Shown here one piece after another: positions 22,014-62,187 of a DNA stretch of 64,000 nucleotides (position 1 is its first letter; every line of letters starts with the position of its first letter). Source of the stretch: Chitinophagaceae bacterium (GTDB lineage Bacteria > Bacteroidota > Bacteroidia > Chitinophagales > UBA10324); assembly GCA_947469485.1 (NCBI GenBank), contig CANIPU010000008.1:11463-75462 (forward strand). The letters run 5' to 3'. The notes under the pieces are model-generated. The model ran no database searches and was not told the DNA's origin. It worked only from the letters and a program-made list of their open reading frames with translations. The position numbers were made by a program, and so were the translations under genes.

Positions 22014-23678
22014 GTGATTAAGATATTCTCAATAGCAGCGTTAACACTTTTTTCTTTTCAATTTTCTCAGACTGTTGCCCAGGTGAGTTGGATGAAAACA
22101 TATGGATCACATGATGCAGATGAAGGAGTAAATGTTGTTTGTGACGCAAGCGGGAATGTTTATCTGGTTTCATCTTTCAGGAATGTAATGACTATGGATA
22201 CATTCCAGTTAAATTATGTTGGGAATCAGGATGGCGTTATATCAAAGATTGATTCATCAGGAAAAATTTTGTGGTCAAAAAGCTTTGGAGGAATTTATGA
22301 TGATAAACCAACTGCACTTTCTCTTTCCCGTGACGGGTACTTAATAGTAGGCGGAAACATTTATGATAGTTGTCAGTTTGGAAATAGTACTGTGTATGGA
22401 AGAGGTTATACTGATGCCTTTGTAGCAAAAATTGATACTTCAAACGGTAATGTTATTTGGGTGAAAACAGCCGGCAGTGCCTATGGATATGAAGAGGCCA
22501 ATAGTGTATGCGTTGATAGCATGAACAATATCTGGATAGGTGGAAGTTTTATGAATATGTTAATTGCAGAAAATGATACACTGCTAAGCAATGGTTCTGT
22601 TGATTTTTTTATTCTTAAGTATGATTCAAATGGAAATTTATTGCAATCAAAATCTTTTGGAAGTATTGGAGTAGATAATATTTCTTCCATCAGTTGTGAT
22701 GCTTTAAGTAATATTTATTTCTGCGGAGTATTTTCCGATACTATGCAAATCGGAAATTACACAGTTGCTTCTGTAGGATTGTTGGATGTGTTTTGGGCAA
22801 AAATGAATGTTAGTGGAAATATTATTTGGGTGAAACAAGCAGGAGGTGCGAATACTGAAAATGTATCATGTATCAGAGCATTCAGAGATGGAAGTTATTA
22901 CATGAGTGGATGGGTGCAGGATACCGCATGGCTTGATGGTCAGCTGTTGGTTGGCGGAGAAGGAGATATTTTTTTAGTTAGTTATGATATAACCAATCAA
23001 CTTAACTGGTTAAAGGAAGGATATAATTTGAATGCGAATGAACTTGCACGGAGTATTACACTTGATAAGTATAACAATGTTTATCTGGCAGGTCAATCGA
23101 ATTTTGTGATTCAGCGATTAGAAGATACGGGTGGAAGAATGGAGTCATCAGAAAAAGCATGCCCTTTCGGTGATTTGGTTTTTCTAAAATATGACACGAC
23201 TGGGACAATGCTTTGGATGGAGCATACACTTGGAACCAATTTTAATATTGCTAATGGTATCTCGATAGATAATCTTGGAAATTGTTTCGTCACAGGTTAT
23301 TATACCGATAGCATCTGGCTCGGATCATTTTTACAAACCGCTCTTGAAGGAAGTGATATTTTATTATTCCGTTTTCATGACCAGACTTTTAATTTGTACA
23401 ATGGGATAAATAATAATGTACTTAATGATTTGAACGCAAATGTTTATCCCAATCCATCTGACGGAGACTTTTATGTAAACATTTTTTCAGATAAGAGCAG
23501 AAGATCTTGCTCGGTAAAAATGTATTCGATGCAGGGAGTAAAGATGAGTGAATGGAAAATTTATCTTGAGGAAGGAATGAATGTTTTGCAATTTAATTCC
23601 GATGCATCTCCCGGAATGTATATGTTGTCACTTGAAGCGGGTAATGAGCATGCACGATTGAAACTGATAATGCATTAA
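22014..23678 (+). CDS. SBBP-type beta-propeller repeat protein with T9SS type A sorting domain, 554 aa
   Basis: GTG start with signal peptide. Has repeated D(A/S)xGN(V/I)Y(L/I)xGxF blades. Ends in YPNPSDGDFYV...GMYMLSL...LKLIMH. Confidence 0.7.
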   Translation: MIKIFSIAALTLFSFQFSQTVAQVSWMKTYGSHDADEGVNVVCDASGNVYLVSSFRNVMTMDTFQLNYVGNQDGVISKIDSSGKILWSKSFGGIYDDKPTALSLSRDGYLIVGGNIYDSCQFGNSTVYGRGYTDAFVAKIDTSNGNVIWVKTAGSAYGYEEANSVCVDSMNNIWIGGSFMNMLIAENDTLLSNGSVDFFILKYDSNGNLLQSKSFGSIGVDNISSISCDALSNIYFCGVFSDTMQIGNYTVASVGLLDVFWAKMNVSGNIIWVKQAGGANTENVSCIRAFRDGSYYMSGWVQDTAWLDGQLLVGGEGDIFLVSYDITNQLNWLKEGYNLNANELARSITLDKYNNVYLAGQSNFVIQRLEDTGGRMESSEKACPFGDLVFLKYDTTGTMLWMEHTLGTNFNIANGISIDNLGNCFVTGYYTDSIWLGSFLQTALEGSDILLFRFHDQTFNLYNGINNNVLNDLNANVYPNPSDGDFYVNIFSDKSRRSCSVKMYSMQGVKMSEWKIYLEEGMNVLQFNSDASPGMYMLSLEAGNEHARLKLIMH

Positions 23679-36438: not shown

Positions 36439-39400
36439 ATGCTTAACCTTAAAAAATCAATAGCAACTATGAAAAAAACTTACAAATTAATTTCGTTTAT
36501 TGTTTTAGCAATTGCTTTAATTTTAAATAATGCGGCAGCTCAATCTCCTGTAATATATAATACAGCAGGAACTTATACTTGGGTTTGCCCGGTTGGAATA
36601 ACTAAAGTAGATGTGAAATGTTGGGGTGCTGGTGGTGGTGGTGGACAAAGAACCAATACCAGCACTGGAGCATCTGGAGGAGCTGGAGGCGGCGCTTATG
36701 CGAGCAATAATTTAGTGAGCGTAACAGCCGGAACAACTTATACAATAACAGTTGGAGGAGGTGGGAGTGGTGCAACTGGTGCTGATGGAGGTAATACTTC
36801 GTTCGGTGCTTTAGTTAAAGCTGAAGGAGGGAAAGGAGGTGGTGTAAATAATTCTACTGGCGGATTTGGAGGTTCAATTCTTTATTCTATTGGCGCAATA
36901 ATTTATGCCGGTGGAAATGGAGCAAACGGATCAGGAACAAACGGAGGCGGAGGCGGAGGTGGTGCTGATAACGCATCAAATCTATTGATAAATGGCTCAG
37001 CACCTACGGGAGGAATAGGCACTTTACCTAATGGCGGGAATGGGGGTGACGGTAGAACCGGGGGTACCCAAGGTCCAGGATTGCAGGGTTTAATTTATGG
37101 CGGAGGCGGAGGTGGTGCTTATAGAACCGGAGGAGGAGCAAAAGCAGGAGGTGCCGGTGCCGGTGGATATTTTATTTTAAATTACCTCACAGTTACAAGT
37201 AGTTCACCAACATGCGCTGGAGTAGGTTACCCTGTTGTTATAACCGGAACAAATTTTACTGCTCCTGTTACTGTAAAGTTTGGAGCAGTAACTGCTACAA
37301 CTGTTACAGTTAACAGCTCAACACAAATTACAGCTATTGTTCCTTTTGGTGCAACAAATAACATAACAGTTATAACTCCAACCGGATCTGTAACAAGGGC
37401 ATTTACAGTTAGCCCAATTGCGGCTACAATTACTCCAAATTATTGTGGGCTGGGTGGCACAGTAGGTTTACAAGCTGCAGGTAGTGGAGTTGGCGGGTCA
37501 TTTACTTATTTGTGGTCAAACGGTGTAACACCGTCTCTTATAAGCACACAACAGGCAGGGGCCTATTCTGTAACAGTTACAAATGGGGTTTGTAAAGCCA
37601 AGACATCAATTAATGTTGCAACTGAATTGGCAACTAATGGAGATTTTGAAGCAGGAAACACTGGTTTTACTACTGATTATAATTCTAGTATTTCACCATT
37701 TGTGTGTTGCCCTGCTGATTATTCCACTGGTTTAGGGTCAGAGGGAAAATATGCCGTTGGTCCCAACCCTAATTTTTATCACGATTATTTTTTTGGAGCG
37801 GATCATACAAATGGAAGTGGAAACATGATGATTGTAAACGGAAGCAATTCAATTATTGTGGTTTGGAAAAATCTGAGTGTAGCAGTACAACCCAATACAA
37901 CTTATTATTTCTCCGCATGGGCTATGAGTGTAAATGATGCTGGCCCTTTTGCAACTTTACAATTTTCTGTTAATGGATTACAAGTGGGTACTGTTGCCCA
38001 ATTAACTGCTGGACCCAATATGGTAATGGGATCATATGCGCCATATTGGAAAAGATTTTATGGATCATGGAATTCTGGTCCTGCAACCACTGCAGATATT
38101 CGCATTCTTGATTTACAAACCGCACCAGGTGGAAACGACTTTGCTTTGGATGATGTATCATTCGGAACACTTGCTCCAATATCCTTAGCGGCAGTTCCAG
38201 ATGCAAATGGAAACTCAGGTATTTGTATTGGAAATCCTTTATATCTAACTGCTAATGCTGTTGGCGGGGCAAGTCCATTTACATTTGCCTGGTCTGGACC
38301 AGGTTTTAGCTCTGCCCTTCAAAATCCAACTGTAAGTGCTTCTGCAGCTGCAATAAATAATGGAACCTACAATTTAACAGTTACTGATGCGCATGGTTGT
38401 ACAACAACCGTAAATACGGTAATTACAGTTAATCCTTTGCCGACAGCTTTAGCATTAACAGCACCAGCTTCGGTATGTAACGGAACTTCAACAAATGTTA
38501 CAATCAACGGCTCACAAACCGGTATGAGTTATCAATTAAGAAATAATATCGGGAATATTGATATTGGAATTCCGGTTCAGGGAACAGGGGGCACTATTCT
38601 TTTACCAACGGGTAATTTAACAGTAGCTACAACTTTTAATGTTCTTGCAACATCAAATTTAACTGAATGTTCGAGCCAAATGACCAATACAGTAACAGTT
38701 TCAATTGCAACAACTCCTTTTCTAATTGTTTCAAATCAAACTATTTGTACAGGAGTAGTTGACTTAACATTAGCTGCTGTTACTGCAGGAAGTACAGGAG
38801 GAGGTACATTGACTTATTGGTACGATGCTGCTGCCTCAGCGTCTCAAATACCAACTCCAACAGCACAAGCAATAAACACCAGTGGTACCTATTATATTAA
38901 AAGCACAGTGGCCTCTTGTTTTGATATTGAACCAGTAGTTGTAAATATTGGCGCAGTTCCTGGGATAGCAAGCTTTAGTTATTCAGGCTCACCATTTTGT
39001 AGTAAAGGAAATGACCCAATGCCTGTGTTAGCTGGGGGAGCTTTTGCAGATGTTTTTTCTGCACCTGCGGGGTTTGTTTGGGTGAGTACAAGTACAGGGC
39101 AAATAGATGTATCGGCTTGTGCTGCCGGAACATATAATGTAACACTTACCATGACGCCAGGATTACCTTGTGCGGTTGTTACAAAAACAACATCTGTAAC
39201 TATTACTTCATCACCTGTTGCGAGTTTCAGTTATTTAACAAATGGTTTATGCCAGCAGGTTAATGGAACTAATCCCGCTCCAATTTTTTCAGGAGGAGCA
39301 ACTGCCGGAACTTTTTCATCATCAGCAGGAATGAATATTAATCCAACAAATGGTATTATTGACATTTTAAATTGCACACCTGGGAATTATGCAATTATTA

Positions 39401-41964
39401 ATTCCTTTGCTGCAAACGGTGGATGTCCGGTAGTTGCTGATACAGAATATGTAGATGTTTATCCTTATACTTTTACGGGGTCATTATCAGCATCAGCATC
39501 AACTAATTCTATTTGCTTAGGCCAGCAAACAATTAATTTATTTTCATCAGCTACTCCATATCTTTCTGCATTGTTCAAAGAAAATTTCAATGGAGGCTCA
39601 ATAGGGTGGGTAACCGGTGGAACTGGTAGTAATGCAAATTCTGCATGGCAACTTAGAACAAGTCCTTATGCTAATCCTAATGGTGGTGCCAATTTTAATT
39701 CGCAGGACAATAAATTTTTTCTTTCAAATAGCGAGGGTGCAGGTAATTGCAATAGAACATTGCGCTCTCCTGTAATGAGCTCCGTAGGATATTCAAATTT
39801 ACAACTTGATTTTTTTCAATATTTCCGTTTTGCCAATTCAGGTGATGCCGCTTTTGTAGAAGTATCAACAAGCGCGACGGGTCCCTGGACTATAGTTCAA
39901 ACTTATAATAGTGCAACAATTGGAGCTATAAATAATTTTACTAATTCTATAGTGAATTTAAATTTTTATACCGGACAACCCTCACTTTATATTCAATTCA
40001 GATATAGTGCCTCAGCTGATTTCTATTGGGCAATTGATAAAATTTCTGTAACCGGCACATCACAGATTTATAATATGAGTTGGACATCGGCACCTGTCGG
40101 GTTTACTTCGCTTCTTGATAACCCTACTTTTGTTGCACCAACAGTAAGTACATTTTATGTAGTAACTGCTACCAATACATATGGTTGTTCAACGCCAAAT
40201 TCACCTGTACCAGTTCAGGTTAATCCGTTGCCAACTCCAAATGCCGGGTTAGATAATATAACATGTAATGGAAATGGTGTAAATATTGGTTCAGCCAGTA
40301 CTGCCGGAAGTACTTATAGCTGGAGTCCTACTACAGGTTTAAGCAGTGCAGCAATTTCAAATCCAGTTGCTTCTCCATTAATAGCTACTACCTATACTGT
40401 TACTGAAACAACTCTTTATGGATGTTCTGTTTCTGATAATGTTATTATTAATATCCATCCGAGCGGACTTTGGCTCGGGACTTCAAGTTCAGCTTGGAAT
40501 ACTGCAGCAAATTGGTGTGGGGGAATTCCAACTTCAACAACTGATGTAACCATACCTGTTGGTGCTCCGAATTGGCCTGATATAACAGTTAATAATGCAA
40601 CTTGCAATGACCTTTATATTCAAACCGGCGCAACGCTGAAAATCTCCACTGGAGGTGATTTAAAATTATATGGAGATTTAACAATTGATGGTACTTATAC
40701 GCATACTGGGGGGGTACTTGAATTTGTTGGCAGTGCAGCTCAAGCAATTTTTACAAATACTCCGAGTACCTATTATAGTTTACTAATTAATAATAATGCC
40801 GGGGTGACGATTGATCATAATATTCTGATTACATCATTACTAACATTAACAAATGGAAAACTTACTACAGACGCAAATGAAGTGCAGGTTACATCTAATG
40901 CTGCCGGATCAGTGTCAGGTTATTCTACCGCTTCTTATGTGTTTGGTAATCTCCGTCGTAATGTAGCTGCCCCAGGAATTTATGATTTCCCGGTTGGAGA
41001 TGCAACAAATTATCAGTTGGCAACAGTTAACTTAAATAGCCAAACAGGCATGAGTAACATTTTAGTATTCTTTAATTCAGTTGTAACCGGAGCCGCTCCT
41101 GCTTATCCAACTACTGAAATTAACGGAGACGGTATTAATGGAGTACTAAACAGTGGTTTTTGGACCATAACTCCAAATGCATATACAGCAGTAAGTTATG
41201 ATGTAACATTAACTCAAAGAGGTTTCAGTAATTATTCAGGTAATGCAAACCAAATGGGAGTAATTAAGCGACCAAATTCAAGTGCTATATGGTCAGGAAC
41301 CACTTTAGTAAATAGTAATGGGCATCATGACAACGCTACACAATCAATAGGAGGAGGAATAGCAGTGGCTAAACGGACTTTAGTTACATCTTTTTCTGAT
41401 TTCGCCATTGGTTTTGGTGCATATCCATTACCTGTTGAGTTAACAAGCTTTACAGCAACAGTAGTTGATAATAAACAGGTTGATTTATTCTGGAATACAC
41501 AGGCAGAATTGAATTGCAAATATTTTTCAGTGCAGCGCAGCGCAGATGGAATTAATTTTTCAGAATTAGGAAAAGTGAATGGAAATGGAACAAGTCAGAT
41601 CGGACATGATTATACCTTCGTTGACCAGTCACCTTTATGCTCAATTGCCTATTATCGTTTAATGCAGGTAGATGAGAATGGCGAAACTCATTACACCCCA
41701 ATTGCTGCAGCTACAATTAATTGCTTTAACAGTTTCTCGGTTTATCCGAATCCAACTCTTGGAAATGTTATGATTGATTTAAGCTCAATAAATGCCGACA
41801 ATTCAATTGTAAAGATTTTAGGATTAGATGGCAAGATTTACATGACATTCAATTCTTCATCTGTGCTGTTAAACATTGATGCATCAAAACTTCCTGCAGG
41901 ATTTTATTTCGTTAATATCAGTAACGGTAATCAAACCTTGAACAGTAGTTTTATAAGAGAATAA
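36439..41964 (+). CDS. giant secreted protein with glycine-rich tail-fibre-like N-domain, IPT/TIG, CBM-like and MAM-like modules and T9SS type A sorting domain, 1841 aa
   Basis: Probable start is ATG 36469 (MKKTYKLISFIVLAIA). Gly-rich domain YTWVCPVGITKVDVKCWGAGGGGG...; IPT-like PVVITGTNFTAPVTVKFG. CBM4/9-like ELATNGDFEAGNTGF...NDFALDDVSFG. MAM/lectin-like FKENFNGGSIGW...YWAIDKISV. Shared C-terminal module. Ends in VYPNPTLGNVMI...GFYFVNI...SFIRE. Confidence 0.85.
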   Translation: MLNLKKSIATMKKTYKLISFIVLAIALILNNAAAQSPVIYNTAGTYTWVCPVGITKVDVKCWGAGGGGGQRTNTSTGASGGAGGGAYASNNLVSVTAGTTYTITVGGGGSGATGADGGNTSFGALVKAEGGKGGGVNNSTGGFGGSILYSIGAIIYAGGNGANGSGTNGGGGGGGADNASNLLINGSAPTGGIGTLPNGGNGGDGRTGGTQGPGLQGLIYGGGGGGAYRTGGGAKAGGAGAGGYFILNYLTVTSSSPTCAGVGYPVVITGTNFTAPVTVKFGAVTATTVTVNSSTQITAIVPFGATNNITVITPTGSVTRAFTVSPIAATITPNYCGLGGTVGLQAAGSGVGGSFTYLWSNGVTPSLISTQQAGAYSVTVTNGVCKAKTSINVATELATNGDFEAGNTGFTTDYNSSISPFVCCPADYSTGLGSEGKYAVGPNPNFYHDYFFGADHTNGSGNMMIVNGSNSIIVVWKNLSVAVQPNTTYYFSAWAMSVNDAGPFATLQFSVNGLQVGTVAQLTAGPNMVMGSYAPYWKRFYGSWNSGPATTADIRILDLQTAPGGNDFALDDVSFGTLAPISLAAVPDANGNSGICIGNPLYLTANAVGGASPFTFAWSGPGFSSALQNPTVSASAAAINNGTYNLTVTDAHGCTTTVNTVITVNPLPTALALTAPASVCNGTSTNVTINGSQTGMSYQLRNNIGNIDIGIPVQGTGGTILLPTGNLTVATTFNVLATSNLTECSSQMTNTVTVSIATTPFLIVSNQTICTGVVDLTLAAVTAGSTGGGTLTYWYDAAASASQIPTPTAQAINTSGTYYIKSTVASCFDIEPVVVNIGAVPGIASFSYSGSPFCSKGNDPMPVLAGGAFADVFSAPAGFVWVSTSTGQIDVSACAAGTYNVTLTMTPGLPCAVVTKTTSVTITSSPVASFSYLTNGLCQQVNGTNPAPIFSGGATAGTFSSSAGMNINPTNGIIDILNCTPGNYAIINSFAANGGCPVVADTEYVDVYPYTFTGSLSASASTNSICLGQQTINLFSSATPYLSALFKENFNGGSIGWVTGGTGSNANSAWQLRTSPYANPNGGANFNSQDNKFFLSNSEGAGNCNRTLRSPVMSSVGYSNLQLDFFQYFRFANSGDAAFVEVSTSATGPWTIVQTYNSATIGAINNFTNSIVNLNFYTGQPSLYIQFRYSASADFYWAIDKISVTGTSQIYNMSWTSAPVGFTSLLDNPTFVAPTVSTFYVVTATNTYGCSTPNSPVPVQVNPLPTPNAGLDNITCNGNGVNIGSASTAGSTYSWSPTTGLSSAAISNPVASPLIATTYTVTETTLYGCSVSDNVIINIHPSGLWLGTSSSAWNTAANWCGGIPTSTTDVTIPVGAPNWPDITVNNATCNDLYIQTGATLKISTGGDLKLYGDLTIDGTYTHTGGVLEFVGSAAQAIFTNTPSTYYSLLINNNAGVTIDHNILITSLLTLTNGKLTTDANEVQVTSNAAGSVSGYSTASYVFGNLRRNVAAPGIYDFPVGDATNYQLATVNLNSQTGMSNILVFFNSVVTGAAPAYPTTEINGDGINGVLNSGFWTITPNAYTAVSYDVTLTQRGFSNYSGNANQMGVIKRPNSSAIWSGTTLVNSNGHHDNATQSIGGGIAVAKRTLVTSFSDFAIGFGAYPLPVELTSFTATVVDNKQVDLFWNTQAELNCKYFSVQRSADGINFSELGKVNGNGTSQIGHDYTFVDQSPLCSIAYYRLMQVDENGETHYTPIAAATINCFNSFSVYPNPTLGNVMIDLSSINADNSIVKILGLDGKIYMTFNSSSVLLNIDASKLPAGFYFVNISNGNQTLNSSFIRE
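40735..41690 (+). repeat. copy 2 of the paralogous C-terminal module
   Basis: AAQAIFT...YDFPVGDATNYQLATVNLNSQTGMS...NSNGHHDNATQSI...YYRLMQVD. By eye about 80 percent nucleotide identity to 35040..35950 over the central part. Confidence 0.8.
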
Positions 41965-42117: not shown

Positions 42118-44319
42118 ATGAAAAATCTTTTTTCCATCGCAATTTTATTTTTCTTACATCTTGAAAGCAATGCACAACTTGTTTCAATTGCTACTGCAAA
42201 GCTGGCAGCAACCGGTGCAACTGTTACTGTGCGCGGAATAGTTTCAAATGGCTCCGAGTTTGGTGGTTCATTGCGCTTTATACAAGATGGAACGGGAGGT
42301 GTGGCTCTTTACGGATCCTCGCTTTCTTCATTAGTTCGTGGTGATAGTATTGAAGCAATCGGAACAGTATCTCCTTATAATAATTTAATGGAGTTTGCTG
42401 TTACCAATTTTTCAGTGATAACAACGGGAAATACAATTCATCCTCCTGTGGTTTTAACCATTTCCGGAGGATTTTTAGAACAATATGAAGGTCAATTAGT
42501 ACAAATCAATGCAGTTTCATTTACTGCACCAGGAACATTTGCAGGCAATACAAATTATAATATTTCTGATGGAGCAAATACAGGTCAGGTTAGAGTTAAT
42601 TTAAGCAGTAATATGGTTTCGACTCCAATCCCATCTGGAACAATAGGTTTAGTTGGAATCATGGGCCAATACACTTCAACTTACCAATTGCTTCCCCGCG
42701 ATTTAAATGATATAATTCAGGTTGGAAATCCTCCGGTTTTAACTACTACTTTAAAACAAACCAATATTACTACTTCAGGCTTTTCAGTTGGTTTTACAAC
42801 TCAAAATGCAGGTAATACAATAATTCGATATGGTTTGACCAGTGCACTTGGAAGCGAAGTCAGCGATGCAACTTTAACTACAAATCATTTAATCAACCTT
42901 TCGGGTTTAACACCTGCAACGCTTTATTATGTTAAGGGACTAACGATCAGTTCAAGTGGTGATACTTCTTTTTCTTCAATACAAGTCATGGGAACACAAT
43001 CTCTTTCTTCTCAATCAATAACTTGTTACTTTAATCGATCAACAGATTCATCATTTGCCTTATCCCTGAATAATTACTCTCATTATTTAAATCAAATAGC
43101 CGCCGACACCTTAAAAGCTTATATAAATCGCGCAACATTATCAATTGATGTTGCAATTTATAATATTGATGATTTAAATGGAATTATCACCGCACTTAAT
43201 CAAAAGGCAGCAAGTGGTGTAACTGTAAGAGTTGTTGCTGATAATGGTGTTAGTTCAACCACAATGAATTCATTTATATCATCAATTCAGAAAATACAAA
43301 GCCCTGCTGGTTCAACTTATGGTATAATGCATAATAAGTTTGTTGTTATTGATGCAAATTCTACTAACCCAAATGCGCCGGTTGTATGGACTGGGTCAAT
43401 GAATTTTACAGATGATCAGGTTAATGTTGATGCTCAGAATATTATAATTTTTCAGGATCAAACAATGGCAAAAGGATATACGCTTGAGTTTAATGAAATG
43501 TTAATTGGTCAGAAGTTTGGTCCGGATAAAACTGATAACACACCTCATGAATACTTATTGCAAGGGAACCGCGTAGAACAATATTTCAGTCCTTCTGATG
43601 TTGTAAACTCACATGTAAAAGATGCCTTATTAACTGCAAATACTTCCGTACATTTTATTGTTTTCAGTTTTACCCGTACAGAGTTGGCTTATCCGATCGC
43701 AGATAATTATCAATCACATCCTGATTATTTTGCACAAGGCATAATAGACGATACTGCTCAGTCAACTGCCGTTTACAGTGCATTAGTTGCACCGATGACT
43801 ACTTCAAATCTTAAGCTAAATCAATTCTCGTGGTTAATGCATCACAAATATGCAATTGTTGATGCTGATGATCAGTTTTCAGATCCACAAGTAATAACAG
43901 GATCATTTAACTTTACCAATAGCGCTTCCACCCGAAATGATGAGAATGAAGTTATTGTTCATAGTCTTGAAATTTCAAATCAATATATTCAGGAGTTTGC
44001 TCAGCGATTTAAAGATCAGGGCGGTGTTGTAATGGTTGGATTAAATGATATTGAAAGCAAATCGCATTTTGAATTGACCGCATATCCAAATCCTGCAACA
44101 GATAATTTAACTGTAAATTTCTTTTCAGAAAATCATGTAGCAACCAATTTTGAATTAATTAATTTAGAAGGAAAAGTTGTGCGCCATTTTAATAATGGAA
44201 GCAGTATCGGAAATCAATCAATTGTAATTAATACCACAGATCTTGCTCCTGGAATTTATTTTATAAAAGTTAAGAGTGGCAGCTATAATAAAACTCAAAA
44301 AATTTCGATTATTCGTTGA
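42118..44319 (+). CDS. secreted phospholipase-D-superfamily enzyme (two HKD motifs; probable extracellular nuclease or phosphodiesterase) with T9SS type A sorting domain, 733 aa
   Basis: Signal peptide. OB-like N-domain (ATVTVRGIVSNGSEFGG..RFIQDGTGGVALYG), as seen at the N-termini of extracellular nucleases. An Fn3-like module. HKD motifs MHNKFVVID...GSMNFT (near 43330) and MHHKYAIVD...GSFNFT (near 43840). Ends in YPNPATDNLTV...GIYFIKV...ISIIR. Confidence 0.8.
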   Translation: MKNLFSIAILFFLHLESNAQLVSIATAKLAATGATVTVRGIVSNGSEFGGSLRFIQDGTGGVALYGSSLSSLVRGDSIEAIGTVSPYNNLMEFAVTNFSVITTGNTIHPPVVLTISGGFLEQYEGQLVQINAVSFTAPGTFAGNTNYNISDGANTGQVRVNLSSNMVSTPIPSGTIGLVGIMGQYTSTYQLLPRDLNDIIQVGNPPVLTTTLKQTNITTSGFSVGFTTQNAGNTIIRYGLTSALGSEVSDATLTTNHLINLSGLTPATLYYVKGLTISSSGDTSFSSIQVMGTQSLSSQSITCYFNRSTDSSFALSLNNYSHYLNQIAADTLKAYINRATLSIDVAIYNIDDLNGIITALNQKAASGVTVRVVADNGVSSTTMNSFISSIQKIQSPAGSTYGIMHNKFVVIDANSTNPNAPVVWTGSMNFTDDQVNVDAQNIIIFQDQTMAKGYTLEFNEMLIGQKFGPDKTDNTPHEYLLQGNRVEQYFSPSDVVNSHVKDALLTANTSVHFIVFSFTRTELAYPIADNYQSHPDYFAQGIIDDTAQSTAVYSALVAPMTTSNLKLNQFSWLMHHKYAIVDADDQFSDPQVITGSFNFTNSASTRNDENEVIVHSLEISNQYIQEFAQRFKDQGGVVMVGLNDIESKSHFELTAYPNPATDNLTVNFFSENHVATNFELINLEGKVVRHFNNGSSIGNQSIVINTTDLAPGIYFIKVKSGSYNKTQKISIIR

Positions 44320-55965: not shown

Positions 55966-56167
55966 AGTTGGCGAAAGTAATTCGGAGTTCGGGAAAAATT
56001 AAAACATGGTTGTTTGAAATTCTATTAAACCACTCGATTAATTATAAATTCATTGGAGGATAATAGTTTGAATTTTAAAATTAATGAAAGAGTAATAAGG
56101 CTTGTTAAAAAGAATAATGTTATAAATTGCATCTTTTAAATTTGAAACTTTAAATCTGTCCGTTATT

Positions 56168-58855
56168 ATGAAAAAGCTTTACTTACTTTCAGTTATTATT
56201 TTGTTTATAAATTCAACTTATGCTCAAATACCTCAAGCTTTAACTTATCAGGCTGTTGCACGCAATGCTTCAGGATCAGCAATTATCAATTCGAACCTTA
56301 GTATTAGAGTTTCAATAAAGGATGTTAATGCAACTGGTCCAACTTTGTATTCCGAAACACATTCGGTAACAACAAATCAGTTTGGGTTATTTACAGTGGC
56401 TATTGGAACTGGATTGATTCAATCAGGTGTTTTTGCAAATATTAATTGGGCTACTGGTTCAAAATTTATGAAAGTTGAAATGGATGTAACAGGAGGCTCT
56501 TCTTATATTGATATGGGAACATCACAAATGTTAAGTGTGCCATATGCATTGTTTGCTGGTAGCGTGGTTGGTGGTTCGGGAGGTGATGATTGGGGAGCAC
56601 AAACAGTAATAGCAAATTCTACATTGACTGGAGATGGGACAAATTCAAATCCTCTTGGATTGGCACAACAAGGTGCTGCCTCAGGTCAGACATTAAAATG
56701 GAATGGATCACAATGGGTTCCTGCAAACGACTTAGTTGGAACAGGCGGAGATAATTGGGGTGCTCAAAGTGTTGTTACTAATTCTACGCTTACTGGTGCC
56801 GGAACTTTTGCATCACCTATAGGTATTGCTCAACAAGGAGCAACATTAGGTCAAACTTTAAAATGGAATGGGGCTGCCTGGGCTCCGTCAAATGATTTGG
56901 ATAATGATGCTCAAACTCTTGGAATTGCAGGAAATATTCTAACAATTAGCAATGGAAATTCTATAACTCTTCCAGTTGCGATAAATTATACTGCAGGTAC
57001 TGGTATTAACATTTTAGGAAATATTATTAGCAACACAGGAGATATTAGTAATTCAAATGAATTACAAACACTTTCGATATCTGGAAGTCAATTAACAATA
57101 TCTGGTGGAAATACAGTTGCAATACCAATCGGTACAAATTATAGTGCTGGGACAGGAATCGATATTACCGGAAACACTATTTCTAATTCCTCTCCTGATC
57201 AAGTCGTTTCAATAACCGGAACCGGTGGAGCATCGGTTACTGGATTTTATCCTAATTTCAATGTTAATTCGACAGATGCACAAACACTTTCTCTCAACGG
57301 ATCTCTATTAACAATATTAAATGGTAATTCAGTTACATTGCCAATTGGTACAACTTATACTTCAGGTTCTGGAATTGGTATTATTGGAAATGTAATTTCA
57401 AATACTCAACCAGATCAAATTGTAAATATTACTGGTGGTGGAGCGACAAATGTTTCTGGTATATATCCAAATTTTATAATCTCATCTACCGACAACAACA
57501 CAACCTATTCCAATGGAAGTGGAATTGATTTAACTGGAACAGTTTTTAGTTTAAATGCAATCACCGATCAAACCCTTAATGGAAATGGAAGCTCCGGCGC
57601 ACCTTTAAAAATTGCTCAGCAAAGTGCAATTACAGGGCAAACACTTAAGTGGAATGGAACTTCTTGGATTCCTGCAAATGATTTAGATAATGATTCTCAA
57701 ACACTTTCAATAAATGGTTCAATTATTTCAATCAGTAGCGGAAACTCAATAAACTTGCCAGCTCCAGTTTCATATACAGCTGGTACAGGTATTGGAATTG
57801 CAGGAACCGTTATAACTAATACATCCCCTGATCAGGTCGTTTCGTTAATAGGAACCGGGGGAACAAATGTTTTAGGATCATATCCAAACTTTACCATTAA
57901 TTCTATTGATAATGATGTACAAAGCTTAAGCCTTAATGGTAATAATTTATCAATTTCAAATGGTAATACCCTTTCGCTCCCACTGGGAACAACTTATTCT
58001 GCTGGAACAGGTATTGGAATAATTGGAACAATAATTTCAAATTCAGCACCGGATCAAATTGTAACATTAGTTGGTACAGGAGCAACTACTATTACAGGAG
58101 CTTATCCTAATTTTACGATTAATTCAGTTGATACAGATACTGACACTCAAACATTATCTCTTAATGGAAATATCCTTGCAATAAGCAATGGAAATAATGT
58201 AACACTAACAACGGGATCAAATTACACTGCTGGAAGCGGAATTTCGTTAACAGGTACAACATTTAGCAATAATGCCATTACTGATTTTACGCTCTCAGGG
58301 AATGGTACCGCTGGAACACCATTAAAAATTGCACAACAAGGTGCAACAACAGGCCAGGTATTGCAATGGGATGGTACAACTTGGTTACCATCAACAATTG
58401 CAGCAGCAGGAGCTTTTGGTCAAAGCACAACTTCTGTCTTTGGAACTTTAGCAATTACTCAAACTCCGACCTCTGCCTTTACATTAGTCCCTGGTTTAAC
58501 CCAAACGATTAATATTCCGGCAGGCTATTCAATTTTTATTACTTCGGGTGGAGGTATTTCAACTTCAAGTGTACTTGGTACTGGATATTCTGTAGCTGAT
58601 ATTGTTTTGGCAATTGATGGGGCTTTAAATGCAGCAGGAGGGGGATATCAAAGATTAACTGCATTAAATAATGGAGGACTTATTGGAAATTTTAGTTATT
58701 GGGCTTTACATCTATCACCAGTATTAACTCCTGGATTGCATACTATAGAGGTTAGGGCTGCAGGAGCAAATAACGGAGGGTCAAATTTTTCTGTAAGTGG
58801 TGATGCAACTAGTGTTTTACAAGGCGAATTAACAATTACACTTATTAAAAATTAA
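56168..58855 (+). CDS. repetitive fibre-like secreted protein, 895 aa, no recognisable T9SS sorting domain
   Basis: Signal peptide MKKLYLLSVIILFINSTYAQ. A 115-aa N-terminal module is shared with the 858-aa gene. Has DNWGAQ...LAQQGAxxGQTLKWNGxxWxPxND units. Has at least six copies of a roughly 60-aa unit (QTLSLxGNxLTISxGNxVTLPxGTxYTAGTGIxIxGNxISNTxPDQ). Ends in a globular all-beta C-terminal head. Confidence 0.8.
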   Translation: MKKLYLLSVIILFINSTYAQIPQALTYQAVARNASGSAIINSNLSIRVSIKDVNATGPTLYSETHSVTTNQFGLFTVAIGTGLIQSGVFANINWATGSKFMKVEMDVTGGSSYIDMGTSQMLSVPYALFAGSVVGGSGGDDWGAQTVIANSTLTGDGTNSNPLGLAQQGAASGQTLKWNGSQWVPANDLVGTGGDNWGAQSVVTNSTLTGAGTFASPIGIAQQGATLGQTLKWNGAAWAPSNDLDNDAQTLGIAGNILTISNGNSITLPVAINYTAGTGINILGNIISNTGDISNSNELQTLSISGSQLTISGGNTVAIPIGTNYSAGTGIDITGNTISNSSPDQVVSITGTGGASVTGFYPNFNVNSTDAQTLSLNGSLLTILNGNSVTLPIGTTYTSGSGIGIIGNVISNTQPDQIVNITGGGATNVSGIYPNFIISSTDNNTTYSNGSGIDLTGTVFSLNAITDQTLNGNGSSGAPLKIAQQSAITGQTLKWNGTSWIPANDLDNDSQTLSINGSIISISSGNSINLPAPVSYTAGTGIGIAGTVITNTSPDQVVSLIGTGGTNVLGSYPNFTINSIDNDVQSLSLNGNNLSISNGNTLSLPLGTTYSAGTGIGIIGTIISNSAPDQIVTLVGTGATTITGAYPNFTINSVDTDTDTQTLSLNGNILAISNGNNVTLTTGSNYTAGSGISLTGTTFSNNAITDFTLSGNGTAGTPLKIAQQGATTGQVLQWDGTTWLPSTIAAAGAFGQSTTSVFGTLAITQTPTSAFTLVPGLTQTINIPAGYSIFITSGGGISTSSVLGTGYSVADIVLAIDGALNAAGGGYQRLTALNNGGLIGNFSYWALHLSPVLTPGLHTIEVRAAGANNGGSNFSVSGDATSVLQGELTITLIKN

Positions 58856-58924
58856 TTAACATTCTTTCATAAAATTTAAAAATTCAAAACCAATTTTTTA
58901 TTCACCAACTCAAATTTTAATACA

Positions 58925-59428
58925 ATGAAATACTTTTCATTTTTTCCTCTTTTATTTATGCCGATTTTATTATCAGCACAAAGTCTTTCTCCTACCGTTA
59001 TTGCTTCTTATGGGAAATGGTCGAACAATGGTGGCTACACCTTATCTGCTACTAGTGGTGAAATGATGATTCAAACATTTACTGGTGGAACAAACATCCT
59101 AACTCAGGGGTTTCAACAACCAGATGAAAAGACCATAGGAATTCAGGAATTGAATGAAGAAGGTTTAACTATTAAAATTTTCCCGAACCCAACAATTGAT
59201 TTAGTTATGATTGATTTGCAATCTGAAAATGCTGAATCATATGGAGTGATAATGTATGATTTATTAGGAAGAACTCTTGCATTGCCTGGTACGCTTGATC
59301 GTAGTCATACCCAATTACAACAATCATTTAATTTATCGCAGTTGCCTTCAGCAACTTATTTTCTATGCGTGGTTAATGCGCAGGGAGAAATAAAAAATTC
59401 ATTTAAAATCCAAAAAATCTCTTATTAA
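58925..59428 (+). CDS. minimal T9SS type A cargo: approximately 50-aa passenger plus sorting domain, 167 aa
   Basis: Signal peptide ending LLSAQ. Short passenger ...SATSGEMMIQTFTGGTNILTQGFQQP and an acidic linker. CTD IFPNPTIDLVMI...ATYFLCV...KIQKISY. Confidence 0.75.
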   Translation: MKYFSFFPLLFMPILLSAQSLSPTVIASYGKWSNNGGYTLSATSGEMMIQTFTGGTNILTQGFQQPDEKTIGIQELNEEGLTIKIFPNPTIDLVMIDLQSENAESYGVIMYDLLGRTLALPGTLDRSHTQLQQSFNLSQLPSATYFLCVVNAQGEIKNSFKIQKISY

Positions 59429-59446
59429 TAAATAATAATTTTAACA

Positions 59447-62023
59447 ATGAAAAAACTAATTACACTTTTTGCCTTTTGCATTATCAGTACAATATCGTTT
59501 GCTCAAATACCTCAGCAATTAACCTATCAAGCTGTTGCCCGAAGTTCAGCCGGAGCAGCATTGGTTTCTACAAACATCAGCATTCGAATTTCAATTAAAG
59601 ATATTACTGCTACAGGTACAACTCTTTATTCTGAAACACATACTGCTACCACAAACCAATTTGGATTGTTTACTCTTCCTGTTGGCAGTGGTACTGTTGT
59701 GTCAGGAACTTTTGCATCAATCAACTGGGCAACTAACGCTAAGTTTATGAAAGTTGAAATGGACCCAACCGGTGGTTCTTCATATACTGATATGGGTACC
59801 TCTCAGCTTTTAAGTGTACCATATGCTTTGGTTGCTGGCAGTGCTGTAAATAATCCAGCCTTATCATTAAATGATTTAACAGATGTTACTTCAACTGGTG
59901 CAACTACAAACCAAGTATTATTATGGAATGGAACACAGTGGGTTCCGGGAAATATCAGTGGAGGTGACAACTGGGGGACGCAAACAGCAGTAACTAATTC
60001 TACTTTAAGCGGTAATGGAACATCAGTTTCTCCACTTGGTCTTGCACAACAAGGTGCTTCTTCAGGTCAGGTGTTAAAATGGAACGGAACTAACTGGGCA
60101 CCTGGAAGTGATAATGTTGGTGCAAGTAGTGGTTCAGTAAATGTAACAGCCCGATTAATTGGCGATGGTACACTTGCAAATCCTCTTGACATTGCGCAAC
60201 AAGCTGCAACTGCAGGTCAGGTTTTAAAGTGGGGTGGAAGCAGTTGGGTTCCTTCAAATGATGCAGATGCTCAAACATTAAACCTGATTGGAAACACTTT
60301 ATCATTAACAAATGGTGGAAGTGTTACTCTGCCGACCGGCACTACTTATACTGCAGGAACAGCAATTAACCTGGGTGGAAATGTTATAACTAATACCGCT
60401 CCGGATCAAACTGTTGTATTAACTGGAACTGGTGGAACAACAGTTACAGGAACTTACCCGAACTTCACCATTAACTCAACAACAGGAGGTGGTTCATATA
60501 CAGCTGGTACAGGAATCAGTATTGTGGGAAATGTGATTACAAATACTTCTTTAAATACTGATGCACAAACACTTTCAGTTGTTGGAAATCAGTTGTCAAT
60601 TTCAGGAGGTAATACTGTAACAATGCCGACCGGCACAACATATACTGCAGGCACCGGAATCAGTTTAGGTGGAAATGTTATTACCAATACTGCACCGGAT
60701 CAAACTGTAACACTTAATTCAGGAACGGGTATTTCTGTTACTGGGTCTTATCCAAATTTCACAATTACTGCGACTGGCGGTGGTGGTGGTGGAATCAGTG
60801 GTTCAGGTACTGTTAACTATGTTCCGAAATTCACTCCGACCGGAACTGCACTTGGTAATTCTCAATTGCGTGATGATGGTACTTACATGGGAATTAACAC
60901 CGCTCCAAACGGAACTGATAAATTAGTTGTTGTTCCTGGAGCTTCAGTTACAGGGGGAATAAAAGTTAACTATAATAACCCATCAGCCAATACCTATGGT
61001 ATGAATGTTACAAGTCTTCATGGCAATTCTTATATTGGTTATACTGGTACAATAACTTTTGGAGCCTTAACAGGAACTGATCCTGAGATATATGGTTCAT
61101 CAAGTTCAGGAGTTTCTGCAGGAGTCTTTGGAGCTACAAGTGGAACGAATACTAGTGCCGCTATTGTAGGTTTATCTAACAACTGGCATGGAGGATTTTT
61201 TGGTTCAAATGATGCTCAAGGTGGTGTTGGTGCTTTAGGCTTATATAATGGAACAGTAGCTAGTGATGGGTTTCTTGGTTTTTATGATGGTTCTGCTGCT
61301 GAGGGTGCAGGTACACATGGCTATAATAACCGAGCTTCAGGTGTTTCGAATTTCGGAGTATATGGTGATTACAATGGAGCAGCATATGGTGTAGGTGTAA
61401 TTGGAATTGGTTTTAATGGTTCAATACCAAATGGATTAGTAGATTATGGTGTTTGGGGTTCTGCTACTTCTCCTGGTTATGCTGTTTATGCTTATGGTGA
61501 TTTGACTTGTACTGGTGCAAAAAATGCATCGGTAGGAACATCAAAAGGAAATCAATTAATGTACAGTATCGAAAGCCCTGAAGTTTGGTTCGAAGATTTT
61601 GGAACTGCTACTTTAGCTAATGGTGAAACAACAGTGAATCTTGATCCGCTTTATCTTGAAACTGTTTTCATTGATGCAACTCATCCTATGATAGTAACTA
61701 TTACACCACAAGGTGATTGTAAAGGAATGTTTGTTGAACCTGGTACGAACTCTTTCACTGTTAAAGAATTAAACGGCGGTAATTCAAATACTTCATTTAG
61801 CTACAGAATAACCTGCAAGAGACTGAATTATCAGGATCACAAATTTGGAGCTGATTTAACATGGGGTAACGGTGATACCCGTGTAAATTATAATTATGTA
61901 ACACCAAAGCCAATGGATTACAATGAAATGATGAAATTCAGTTTGGAGCAAAAAGCTAAAAACCAAAACGACAGTAAATCGAAAAAAATAGAATCTAAAA
62001 TTAACTTGGTTAATCCGAGATAG
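59447..62023 (+). CDS. repetitive tail-fibre-like secreted protein, 858 aa, no recognisable T9SS sorting domain
   Basis: Signal peptide MKKLITLFAFCIISTISFAQ. Same N-terminal module and LAQQGAxxGQVLKWNG / QTLSxxGNxLSxxGGNxVTxPTGTTYTAGT repeats as the 895-aa protein. Then GTVNYVPKFT...LGNSQLRDDG and a Gly-rich beta-helix-like region. The C-terminal ...YAVYAYGDLTCTG...MYSIESPEVWFEDFG...VNLDPLYLETV... module resembles the ends of tail-fibre-like proteins. Confidence 0.8.
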   Translation: MKKLITLFAFCIISTISFAQIPQQLTYQAVARSSAGAALVSTNISIRISIKDITATGTTLYSETHTATTNQFGLFTLPVGSGTVVSGTFASINWATNAKFMKVEMDPTGGSSYTDMGTSQLLSVPYALVAGSAVNNPALSLNDLTDVTSTGATTNQVLLWNGTQWVPGNISGGDNWGTQTAVTNSTLSGNGTSVSPLGLAQQGASSGQVLKWNGTNWAPGSDNVGASSGSVNVTARLIGDGTLANPLDIAQQAATAGQVLKWGGSSWVPSNDADAQTLNLIGNTLSLTNGGSVTLPTGTTYTAGTAINLGGNVITNTAPDQTVVLTGTGGTTVTGTYPNFTINSTTGGGSYTAGTGISIVGNVITNTSLNTDAQTLSVVGNQLSISGGNTVTMPTGTTYTAGTGISLGGNVITNTAPDQTVTLNSGTGISVTGSYPNFTITATGGGGGGISGSGTVNYVPKFTPTGTALGNSQLRDDGTYMGINTAPNGTDKLVVVPGASVTGGIKVNYNNPSANTYGMNVTSLHGNSYIGYTGTITFGALTGTDPEIYGSSSSGVSAGVFGATSGTNTSAAIVGLSNNWHGGFFGSNDAQGGVGALGLYNGTVASDGFLGFYDGSAAEGAGTHGYNNRASGVSNFGVYGDYNGAAYGVGVIGIGFNGSIPNGLVDYGVWGSATSPGYAVYAYGDLTCTGAKNASVGTSKGNQLMYSIESPEVWFEDFGTATLANGETTVNLDPLYLETVFIDATHPMIVTITPQGDCKGMFVEPGTNSFTVKELNGGNSNTSFSYRITCKRLNYQDHKFGADLTWGNGDTRVNYNYVTPKPMDYNEMMKFSLEQKAKNQNDSKSKKIESKINLVNPR

Positions 62024-62046
62024 TTTTTCTTAACTAATATTATTAA

Positions 62047-62084
62047 AAGAGGTCGTGTCGTAATTGATGCGACCTCTTTTTTTT
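62047..62084 (+). terminator. rho-independent terminator
   Basis: AAGAGGTCG / CGACCTCTT perfect 9-bp stem with a 14-nt loop, then TTTTTT. Confidence 0.8.
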
Positions 62085-62187
62085 GTATCATTACTTAGTC
62101 ACGAAATTGTAAGTTGTTTGTGAAATAATAATTCTCCATTACTGTTAATCAATTCCAAAACACTTAATTCGCTGCGCACAATTATTC

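What the first reader, a model, noticed from the sequence alone, without database searches (positions are those of the whole stretch)
56168..62023. Fibre / mini-cargo / fibre cluster: two tail-fibre-like proteins lacking sorting domains flank a 167-aa T9SS cargo that is almost all sorting signal
Seen: three co-directional genes (gaps of 69 and 18 nt) end in a strong terminator (62047-62084). The 895-aa and 858-aa proteins have Sec signal peptides and highly repetitive, Gly/Thr/Asn-rich fibre-like bodies. Neither has a type A (YPNP...) or type B (NGDGxND...WDG) C-terminal domain. The small gene between them encodes a signal peptide, about 50 passenger residues (...SATSGEMMIQTFTGGTNILTQGFQQP), a short acidic linker and a canonical type A domain. 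Established: T9SS type A cargos lose the CTD and are anchored to the surface. Tail-fibre-like proteins are normally trimeric. Inference: the mini-cargo may act as a secreted, surface-anchored adaptor or piggy-back carrier that docks the CTD-less fibres. I am not aware of such an arrangement having been described. There are no phage structural, lysis or integration genes in the neighbourhood (glyQS upstream, gldAFG downstream). This is my second candidate for an undescribed system.
Basis: partly seen in the sequence, partly recalled or inferred. Interest (0 to 1): 0.72.

Follow-up and report, generated by a model that had tools for sequence, protein, structure and literature searches.

The report
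Surface fibres paired with a mini-cargo
A freshwater Bacteroidota bacterium encodes two long adhesin-like fibres that lack the usual export tag, next to a tiny tagged protein; this pairing recurs across the phylum and may explain how such fibres reach or hold onto the cell surface.

Summary
Three co-directional genes (895, 167 and 858 aa; gaps of 69 and 18 nt) end at a 16-bp terminator. The small protein is a T9SS type A cargo. Neither fibre has a sorting domain.

- The fibres are Bacteroidota relatives of the Bdellovibrio "mosaic adhesive trimer" (MAT) fibres. All 79 N-modules tested hit NCBIfam Bdello_MAT_N; the window hits score below the curated cutoff.
- Their tips are mosaic (S74 chaperone, C1q, collagen and others).
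- The conserved unit is mini-cargo followed by fibre, not fibre/mini/fibre.

Survey results:
- In 54 of 83 mini-cargo loci a fibre gene starts a median 29 nt downstream, an 88-fold enrichment.
- In the reverse survey, 44 of 96 fibre genes have a mini-cargo directly upstream.
- None of 75 fibre C-termini carries a T9SS CTD.

The 50-aa passenger ends in an invariant LTQGFQQ(P) motif. It is the best-conserved part of the protein, defines about 7,000 protein clusters, has no Pfam family and is predicted disordered on its own.

An anchor or carrier role for the fibre's N-domain is the best reading but is not shown. A crude AlphaFold pseudo-complex predicted no docking. Orphan copies exist, and the module also heads larger, unrelated T9SS cargos. 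I found no published description.

The parts
56137..56144 (+). Putative Bacteroidota-type -7 promoter element TAAATTTG (consensus TAnnTTTG), 23 nt upstream of the fibre-1 start codon
   Evidence: Read directly from the sequence. The consensus is from my own knowledge of Bacteroidota sigma-A promoters. Not tested.
56168..58855 (+). Fibre 1, 895 aa, MAT-like and without a CTD. Signal peptide aa 1-19 (cleavage ...TYA|Q). N-module aa 20-135 (56225-56572). Repetitive stalk aa ~137-735, with four GQxLxWxGxxWxP units, six YTAGTGI units and four YPNF units. Tip aa ~736-895 (58373-58852) of the '...GELTITLIKN' type.
   Evidence: ORF. NF053851 Bdello_MAT_N E 2.9e-6. N-module HMM E 1e-61. Repeat motif positions. 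The tip cluster has 7 members and no Pfam family; in L048 the same tip type follows a collagen repeat. No CTD.
58925..59428 (+). Mini-cargo, 167 aa. Signal peptide aa 1-18 (…LSA|Q). LTQGFQQP module aa 19-66 (58979-59122). Acidic linker aa 67-~84. T9SS type A CTD aa ~72/85-167 (59177-59425).
   Evidence: PF18962 and TIGR04183 above their cutoffs. Family alignments A1, A2 and A5, with G30, E46 and Q61-Q65 invariant. AlphaFold: CTD pLDDT ~90, passenger 45-60. The passenger-only profile finds 7,014 clusters.
59447..62023 (+). Fibre 2, 858 aa, MAT-like and without a CTD. Signal peptide aa 1-19. N-module aa 20-135 (59504-59851). Stalk repeats aa ~136-440. Gly-rich region aa ~441-690. Tip aa ~691-835 followed by a Lys-rich tail (61517-62020).
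   Evidence: ORF. Bdello_MAT_N E 8.7e-10 on the full protein and 1.5e-11, 44.3 bits, on aa 1-165. The N-module folds at pLDDT 96-98. The tip cluster has 28 members, 24 of them directly after a mini-cargo. Weak profile hit to the cyanophage tailspike RBD 7eea, E 0.014. A 187-nt metatranscriptome contig lies on 59748-59934.
62045..62088 (+). Intrinsic terminator: a 16-bp stem with 6 G-C pairs and a 4-nt loop, followed by a T-run. It closes the three-gene unit.
   Evidence: No terminator-like site lies in the two internal gaps.

Best explanation
The cluster is one transcription unit. It encodes two surface fibres of the mosaic-adhesive-trimer (MAT) kind and a dedicated small T9SS type A cargo.

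Each fibre has four parts: a Sec signal peptide with Gln at +1, a conserved ~115-aa all-beta N-domain homologous to the Bdellovibrio MAT N-domain, a repetitive stalk, and a swappable tip.

The fibres have no T9SS sorting domain. The mini-cargo supplies one. Its 50-aa passenger, ending in the invariant LTQGFQQ(P) motif, is exported by T9SS. If it is handled like other type A cargos, its CTD is cut off and the passenger is fixed to the outer surface. There it serves as the partner of the fibre's conserved N-domain. It would act either as the surface element that holds the fibre base, or as a carrier that takes the fibre through T9SS with it, or both.

Shown here:
- the anatomy of the three genes;
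- the homology of the N-domain to Bdellovibrio MAT;
- the absence of CTDs in the fibre family;
- the operon-like mini-then-fibre pairing across Bacteroidota orders;
- the high conservation of both the passenger and the N-domain.

Inferred, not shown:
- physical contact between passenger and N-domain;
- that fibre display depends on T9SS;
- the trimeric state of these particular fibres.
For: - Pairing from the mini-cargo side: 54 of 83 mini-cargo loci have a fibre N-module gene starting a median 29 nt downstream on the same strand. This is 88 times the background density in the same loci. A further 12 loci have a fibre elsewhere in the locus.
- Pairing from the fibre side: 44 of 96 fibre genes found independently have the passenger module directly upstream, and tandem mini-fibre-mini-fibre cassettes occur (L110, L112, L150, L156).
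- The two surveys together give 94 non-redundant pairs.
- No sorting domain: 0 of 75 fibre C-termini has a type A or type B CTD, while the tips are mosaic (S74 16, C1q 4, collagen 4 and others).
- The mini-cargo pairs with at least 13 unrelated tip clusters, so any partnership must involve the conserved N-module rather than the tip.
- 79 of 79 N-modules hit Bdello_MAT_N, best E 5.9e-15.
- The MAT paper states that the N-domain presumably binds an unidentified surface element (PMC10769870).
- Mean pairwise identity is 53% for the passenger and 50% for the N-module, against 25% for the CTD.
- The passenger is predicted disordered alone despite its conservation, as expected for a segment that orders on a partner.
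- The organism uses T9SS heavily: at least 8 other CTD genes lie in the window.
Against: - The AlphaFold pseudo-complex (mini-cargo fused to the fibre-2 N-module) left the passenger at pLDDT 34-50, so no docking was predicted. The test was weak: a monomeric N-domain and an unpaired alignment that was shallow on the passenger side.
- Co-divergence of the passenger with the N-module (rho 0.23) is no stronger than that of the CTD with the N-module (0.25).
- 18 of 84 mini-cargo loci have no fibre within the flanks held (up to 10 kb), including a serA-linked orphan subfamily. Two of these (L023, L063) do have an upstream fibre-like ORF whose N-terminus is cut by the contig end.
- About half of the fibre genes have no mini-cargo directly upstream, and some fibre arrays have none.
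- The same module heads larger T9SS cargos with no fibre relation.
- Bdellovibrio MAT fibres reach the surface without any T9SS.
- Both surveys kept only the 80 loci most similar to the query, so the frequencies describe the nearer part of each family.
Confidence: 0.45

Rival explanations
1. The two are co-regulated but physically independent. The mini-cargo is a small T9SS-displayed or released peptide with its own role, for example a signalling ligand in the manner of PorA or a surface-conditioning peptide. It is simply co-expressed with fibres, and the fibres reach the surface by another route.
For: - Small CTD proteins with non-carrier roles are known: PorA feeds PorXY-SigP signalling.
- Orphan copies exist away from fibres.
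- The module also occurs on larger, unrelated cargos.
- No docking was predicted.
- Bdellovibrio MAT fibres need no T9SS.
Against: - A median gap of 29 nt and an 88-fold enrichment across several orders, together with duplication as a mini-plus-fibre cassette, argue for a stoichiometric or cis relationship rather than loose co-regulation.
- The passenger has no folded ligand-binding domain, unlike PorA.
Confidence: 0.25
2. The LTQGFQQP module is a general docking tag, and the fibres are scaffolds. Any T9SS cargo that starts with the module, whether the mini-protein or a larger enzyme or adhesin, plugs onto the fibre base. The mini-cargo would be the minimal or default occupant.
For: - The module sits at the N-terminus of 450-920-aa type A cargos, and occurs twice in P0299 and P0191.
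- Its motif is extremely conserved across about 7,000 clusters.
Against: - I did not examine the genomic context of the larger cargos, so I have no evidence that they associate with fibres.
- No predicted contact.
Confidence: 0.12
3. The mini-cargo is a periplasmic assembly or quality-control factor for the fibre N-terminus, analogous to the small assembly proteins encoded next to phage tail-fibre genes. Its CTD would serve only to dispose of it afterwards.
For: - It is a small gene tightly coupled to a fibre gene.
- It pairs with both S74 and non-S74 fibres, so it does not replace the C-terminal chaperone.
Against: - Phage fibre chaperones act on the C-terminal tip and are usually encoded downstream of the fibre gene.
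- A canonical export and anchoring domain is an odd feature for a periplasmic chaperone.
- The N-module folds confidently on its own in the prediction.
Confidence: 0.1
4. The adjacency is inherited synteny or chance, with no functional link.
For: In the closest relatives the whole neighbourhood (fibres, mini-cargo, gldAFG-type genes) is syntenic.
Against: - The pairing persists at 30-40% mini-cargo identity, in different genomic neighbourhoods and in several orders.
- It is enriched 88-fold over background, and 94 non-redundant pairs were found.
Confidence: 0.03

Closest known systems
Mosaic adhesive trimer (MAT) fibres of Bdellovibrio bacteriovorus (Caulton et al. 2024, PMC10769870)
   Same: - A Sec signal peptide is followed directly by a conserved beta-rich N-domain of ~115-130 aa. 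All 79 N-modules hit the NCBIfam Bdello_MAT_N model.
- A long repetitive stalk.
- Swappable C-terminal tips, with S74-chaperone and non-S74 subfamilies.
- No PDB homologue of the N-domain.
   Different: - A different phylum.
- The hit scored for fibre 2 (44.3 bits) is below the curated cutoff of 60 bits.
- Different stalk repeats.
- No link to predation is known.
- The fibre genes are paired with a small T9SS cargo gene, which the Bdellovibrio paper does not describe (Bdellovibrio has no T9SS).
Small T9SS CTD proteins: PorA (PGN_0123) of Porphyromonas gingivalis and Fjoh_0547 of Flavobacterium johnsoniae (PMC7712824)
   Same: Very small proteins made of a signal peptide, little passenger and a type A CTD. 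This shows that 'mini-cargos' exist and can have non-enzymatic roles.
   Different: - PorA is 246 aa with a folded FimH-like lectin domain. It acts upstream of PorXY-SigP and reaches the surface without the T9SS translocon.
- The mini-cargo here has a 50-aa passenger that is predicted disordered and carries the LTQGFQQP motif, and it is paired with fibre genes.
Type B CTD adhesins with dedicated PorP/SprF-like partners (e.g. SprB-SprF; PMC9143113, abstract seen)
   Same: A large surface adhesin depends on a partner encoded next to it for T9SS-linked secretion or anchorage.
   Different: In that case the adhesin carries its own CTD and the partner is an outer-membrane protein. Here the adhesin has no CTD and the partner is itself a cargo.
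Hitchhiker (piggy-back) export, as in the Tat pathway (own knowledge; review PMC9251779 listed, not read)
   Same: A signal-less folded protein is exported bound to a signal-bearing partner. This is the logic of the carrier version of the model.
   Different: It is a different machine and membrane. My literature searches turned up no paper describing such a mechanism for T9SS.
Phage tail fibres and their assembly proteins
   Same: A trimeric fibre logic, S74 intramolecular chaperone tips in relatives, and a small accessory gene next to the fibre gene.
   Different: No PHROG hits for the window proteins, no phage genes nearby, and the accessory gene lies upstream and carries a secretion domain.

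Membership tests
MAT fibre superfamily (Bdellovibrio type) | A conserved beta-rich N-domain of ~130 aa immediately after the signal peptide | tested here: met
   NF053851 matches aa 12-114 of fibre 2 (E 1.5e-11) and all 79 relatives tested. AlphaFold gives a 7-strand all-beta domain at pLDDT 96-98.
MAT fibre superfamily (Bdellovibrio type) | Score above the curated NCBIfam cutoff (60 bits) for Bdello_MAT_N | tested here: not met
   Fibre 2 scores 44.3 bits on aa 1-165, and 38.6 bits on the full protein where fibre 1 scores 27.2 bits. The model is a Bdellovibrio 'subfamily_domain', so I file the fibres as remote relatives rather than members of that subfamily.
MAT fibre superfamily (Bdellovibrio type) | Mosaic C-terminal tips with S74 and non-S74 subfamilies | tested here: met
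   16 of 75 have Peptidase_S74. Others have C1q, collagen, Collar, YadA_head, Lcl_C and more. There are 21 tip clusters. Both window fibres are non-S74.
MAT fibre superfamily (Bdellovibrio type) | A trimeric intertwined fibre located on the cell surface | not testable with these tools
   Only indirect evidence: collagen, C1q and S74 elements in relatives imply trimers.
T9SS type A cargo (mini-cargo) | An N-terminal Sec signal plus a C-terminal TIGR04183/PF18962 domain above cutoff | tested here: met
   41.9 bits against a cutoff of 27, and 33.6 bits against 23. The CTD fold has pLDDT ~90.
T9SS type A cargo (mini-cargo) | T9SS-dependent export, CTD cleavage and surface attachment | not testable with these tools
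   Needs genetics and mass spectrometry.
T9SS cargo (the two fibres) | A type A or type B C-terminal sorting domain | tested here: not met
   No hit at E<=1 in the window fibres. 0 of 75 C-termini (2 window, 73 relatives) hit at E<=0.01.
PorA-like regulators | A folded FimH-like lectin N-domain (~135 aa) before the CTD | tested here: not met
   The passenger is ~50 aa with pLDDT 45-60. PorA is described in PMC7712824.
Phage tail fibre or prophage remnant | Similarity to phage protein families and a phage gene neighbourhood | tested here: not met
   No PHROG hit at E<=0.01. The neighbours are housekeeping genes.

The most novel reading that the evidence does not exclude
The LTQGFQQP module is a T9SS-delivered docking element for the conserved N-domain of MAT-like fibres. 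Through it, fibres without a sorting signal would be carried out and/or fixed to the surface. This would be the first hitchhiker or adaptor route described for T9SS, and it would identify the long-sought 'surface element' that holds MAT fibre bases. Larger cargos that start with the same module would then be displayed on the same scaffold.
Probability: 0.3. Interest if true: 0.85.

Novelty: new variant of a known kind. Interest (0 to 1): 0.62.

Why it matters
- T9SS is thought to export only proteins that carry their own C-terminal sorting domain. A widespread class of large fibres without a CTD, tightly coupled to a minimal cargo, would be a concrete and testable case of export or anchoring in trans.
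- It extends the MAT fibre superfamily, so far described for a predator, into Bacteroidota. It also offers a candidate for what holds the fibre base, which the MAT paper left open.
- It defines an unannotated, very common 50-aa N-terminal module (about 7,000 clusters at 50% identity) that current databases label only as 'T9SS type A sorting domain-containing protein'.

Tried and rejected
- PDB sequence searches with fibre 1 and fibre 2, and with profiles of the N-module, the passenger and the fibre-2 tip. Nothing useful came back except a marginal tailspike hit.
- Foldseek of the chimera model against PDB and BFVD gave only generic Ig/FnIII sandwiches.
- A homologue search with the N-module alone returned only short fragments, so it could not show architectures. 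I took architectures from the loci instead.
- The search for related loci with the broad alignments failed for lack of a conserved stretch. Subsets worked.
- Block-diagonal alignments were repeatedly misaligned by MAFFT.
- The accepted run (A11) had a shallow alignment for the mini-cargo half and predicted no docking. I treat this as inconclusive.
- The mirror-tree analysis gave no passenger-specific signal.
- The fibre-1 tip is not C1q by Pfam.
- Passenger-fibre fusion proteins ('Rosetta stone' evidence) were looked for among the best 150 hits. Of the 11 long or two-stretch outliers, the 8 I read were not fibre fusions: 6 are other T9SS cargos with a C-terminal CTD, and 2 (P0198, P0249) have no CTD and are probably read-through or truncated gene calls.
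- RNA evidence amounts to a single short contig.
- Considered and rejected: prophage remnant, lipoprotein anchoring (no lipobox Cys in the signal peptides), and PorA homology.
Full report
**1. The observation**

All are on the + strand, with gaps of 69 and 18 nt. A hairpin of 16 pairs followed by a T-run at 62045-62080 is the strongest terminator-like site in the 9 kb scanned, and no such site lies in the two internal gaps. A consensus Bacteroidota -7 element (TAAATTTG, 56137-56144) sits 23 nt before the first start codon (the consensus is from my own knowledge). The simplest reading is a single transcription unit.

The small protein carries a type A T9SS sorting domain above the curated cutoffs: PF18962 at 41.9 bits against 27, and TIGR04183 at 33.6 bits against 23. 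Neither fibre matches any type A or type B sorting model, even at E<=1. The two fibres share their first 440 residues at 49% identity and then diverge completely.

The window holds at least eight other genes with T9SS sorting domains. The organism clearly uses T9SS, so the fibres' lack of a tag stands out. The flanks are housekeeping genes, and the three proteins hit no phage family. The closest relatives are freshwater Chitinophagaceae genome bins. A 98%-identical contig and twelve lake-water runs hold the sequence.

**2. What the fibres are**

NCBIfam gives a below-cutoff but specific hit of both N-termini to Bdello_MAT_N. This is the N-domain of the 'mosaic adhesive trimer' fibres of Bdellovibrio bacteriovorus. 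I extracted 83 fibre genes carrying this N-module from related loci. Of these, 77 were long enough to scan; together with the two window fibres, all 79 N-termini hit the same model, with a best E of 5.9e-15.

[quoted passage not shown] The Bacteroidota fibres show the same logic. Among 75 C-termini, 16 have the S74 chaperone, 4 have C1q, 4 have collagen, and others have phage Collar, YadA head, Lcl_C, BclA_C or Fib_succ_major. They fall into 21 unrelated tip clusters. Collagen, C1q and S74 elements imply trimers. The fibre-1 tip type directly follows a collagen repeat in L048.

AlphaFold folds the fibre-2 N-module as a seven-strand all-beta domain at pLDDT 96-98. It has no specific structural neighbour in the PDB or BFVD, as the MAT authors also reported for their N-domain. 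I therefore file the fibres as remote, Bacteroidota relatives of MAT fibres. They are not members of the Bdellovibrio subfamily, because the curated cutoff is not met.

**3. What the mini-cargo is**

It belongs to a large family of proteins of ~155-175 aa. The conserved part is the passenger, not the sorting domain:
- Residues 19-66 end in a nearly invariant ILTQGFQQP motif.
- G30, E46 and Q61-Q65 are invariant in 36 diverse members.
- Mean pairwise identity is 53% for the passenger against 25% for the CTD.

A profile of the passenger alone finds 7,014 clusters at 50% identity in the exhaustive library. Nearly all are ~160-170 aa with the module at residues ~20-72. A few are larger type A cargos of 450-920 aa that start with the same module, and two proteins carry it twice. 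The module has no Pfam family and no PDB match.

AlphaFold models the CTD with confidence (pLDDT ~90) but leaves the passenger at 45-60. High conservation combined with no autonomous fold is what one expects of a segment that orders on a partner. That is an inference, not a result.

**4. Is the linkage real?**

Nearly all of the 80 kept are titled as Bacteroidota lineages: Chitinophagales, Bacteroidales, Saprospiraceae, Sphingobacteriales and others. In the 83 non-duplicate loci I held:
- 54 have a fibre N-module gene starting directly downstream on the same strand. The median gap is 29 nt, and the density is 88 times that of the rest of the same loci.
- 12 more have a fibre elsewhere in the locus, mostly directly upstream.
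- 18 of the 84 loci counted have none. Two of these (L023, L063) have an upstream fibre-like ORF whose N-terminus is cut off by the contig end.

*Survey from the fibre side.* I located fibre genes in metagenome contigs by their N-module alone. Of 96 with enough upstream sequence, 44 have the passenger module directly upstream. Tandem mini-fibre-mini-fibre cassettes occur (L110, L112, L150, L156), which shows that the pair duplicates as a unit.

The two surveys together give 94 non-redundant pairs. The mini-cargo sits in front of fibres from at least 13 unrelated tip clusters. The fibre-2 tip type dominates, with 24 of its 28 members being the gene right after a mini-cargo.

The fibre/mini/fibre triplet itself is kept only in close relatives (L001, L005-L008). 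At 44% identity only the mini-fibre pair remains. Both surveys kept the 80 loci most similar to the query, so these frequencies describe the nearer part of each family.

**5. How it most likely works**

Four facts are shown:
- A family of Sec-exported fibres never carries a T9SS tag (0 of 75).
- These fibres have a conserved N-domain.
- A minimal T9SS cargo has a passenger that is equally conserved.
- The two genes form an operon-like pair across several orders.

In Bdellovibrio the N-domain is thought to sit at the cell surface and bind an unidentified surface element.

The best-supported model is that the mini-cargo is the T9SS-delivered partner of the fibre N-domain. After export, and by analogy with other type A cargos (CTD removal and covalent attachment to the surface; PMC4560394 abstract, and my own knowledge), its passenger would hold the fibre base. 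Alternatively, the passenger binds the fibre in the periplasm and carries it through the translocon. I give this model 0.45.

The evidence against it is real:
- The one structural test I could run was a fused mini-cargo plus N-module chain with an unpaired alignment. It predicted no docking. The test used a monomeric N-domain and only three mini-cargo homologues, so it is weak.
- Co-divergence shows no passenger-specific signal.
- Orphan copies exist, notably a 173-aa subfamily that always follows serA.
- Half of the fibre genes lack their own mini-cargo.
- The module also heads larger cargos with no visible fibre relation.
- Bdellovibrio displays MAT fibres without any T9SS.

The rivals, with their weights, are:
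- co-expressed but independent small surface peptide, as with PorA signalling: 0.25;
- a general docking tag on a fibre scaffold: 0.12;
- a periplasmic assembly factor: 0.10;
- mere synteny: 0.03.

**6. Comparison with what is known**

- The closest kin of the fibres are the Bdellovibrio MAT proteins.
- The closest precedents for the mini-cargo are the small CTD proteins PorA (246 aa, FimH-like domain, PorXY-SigP signalling) and Fjoh_0547 (112 aa). Neither has the LTQGFQQP module or a fibre partner.
- The closest precedent for a dedicated neighbouring partner of a T9SS adhesin is the type B CTD plus PorP/SprF-like pairing. There the adhesin carries its own tag.

Full-text searches for piggy-back or co-secretion in T9SS, and for T9SS with tail-fibre or S74 proteins, found no description of this arrangement. 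The library does not cover all journals.

**7. Verdict**

The fibres are new members of a known kind. The conserved pairing with a minimal T9SS cargo, and the LTQGFQQP module itself, appear to be undescribed. I rate the finding a new variant of a known kind, with interest 0.62.

Noticed in passing
L003 8001-8522; L013 2683-3204; L031 8011-8532; L033 9989-10510; L037 1657-2178; L069 9995-10516; L076 7115-7636: A 173-aa subfamily of the mini-cargo ('...NANGSLSYTVGEMTM...ILTQGFQQP...', ending in e.g. KRFQVVN or KKFQVIN). In five of these loci (L003, L013, L033, L037, L069) it sits directly after a serA-like dehydrogenase gene with no fibre nearby. In L031 the serA-like gene is split by masked sequence, and in L076 the upstream neighbour is a different gene. 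In L031 and L033 a ~1,290-aa ORF follows it. The same subfamily is fibre-adjacent in other genomes.
   Followed up: partly
P0211, P0253, P0256, P0293, P0299, P0191: The LTQGFQQP module also occurs at the N-terminus of larger type A T9SS cargos of 450-920 aa, one of which also has a dockerin domain. It occurs twice in P0299 and P0191. Their genomic context was not examined.
   Followed up: partly
L110, L112, L150, L156, L094, L131, L153 (metagenome contigs): Tandem arrays of mini-cargo plus fibre cassettes, up to three pairs in a row in L112. By contrast, some fibre arrays have no mini-cargo at all (L087, L119).
   Followed up: partly
window 855-2744, 4791-6869(-), 6909-10094(-), 10811-14044(-), 22014-23678, 30966-36269, 36439-41964, 42118-44319: At least eight other genes in the window end in T9SS sorting domains: seven type A and one type B (6909-10094). 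The 42118-44319 product combines a PLD-like domain with a type A CTD.
   Followed up: partly
L011 and L012 (record titles): Two genome bins titled 'uncultured Bifidobacteriaceae bacterium' carry typical Bacteroidota mini-cargo/fibre loci. The bins are probably mislabelled or contaminated.
   Followed up: no
L002 99-2800: In a 44%-identical relative the upstream fibre is replaced, on the opposite strand, by a HerA-like ATPase and a PLD-family nuclease gene pair. This looks like a defence-type insertion.
   Followed up: no
L023 145-2247 and L063 8-2371: Fibre-like ORFs ending in an S74-style coiled coil lie directly upstream of a mini-cargo, but their N-termini are cut by the contig ends. These two 'no fibre' loci are therefore probably linked cases that were undercounted.
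   Followed up: no
window 61517-62020 and alignment A12: The fibre-2-type tip (ESPE...G..L.NG.A.V.L... followed by a Lys-rich tail) is the commonest partner of the mini-cargo. It has a marginal profile match to the C-terminal sandwich of a cyanophage tailspike receptor-binding domain (7eea, E 0.014).
   Followed up: partly
window 59748-59934: A single 187-nt contig from a lake-water metatranscriptome (run X21, 4 mismatches) lies on the fibre-2 N-module. This is the only hint of expression.
   Followed up: partly
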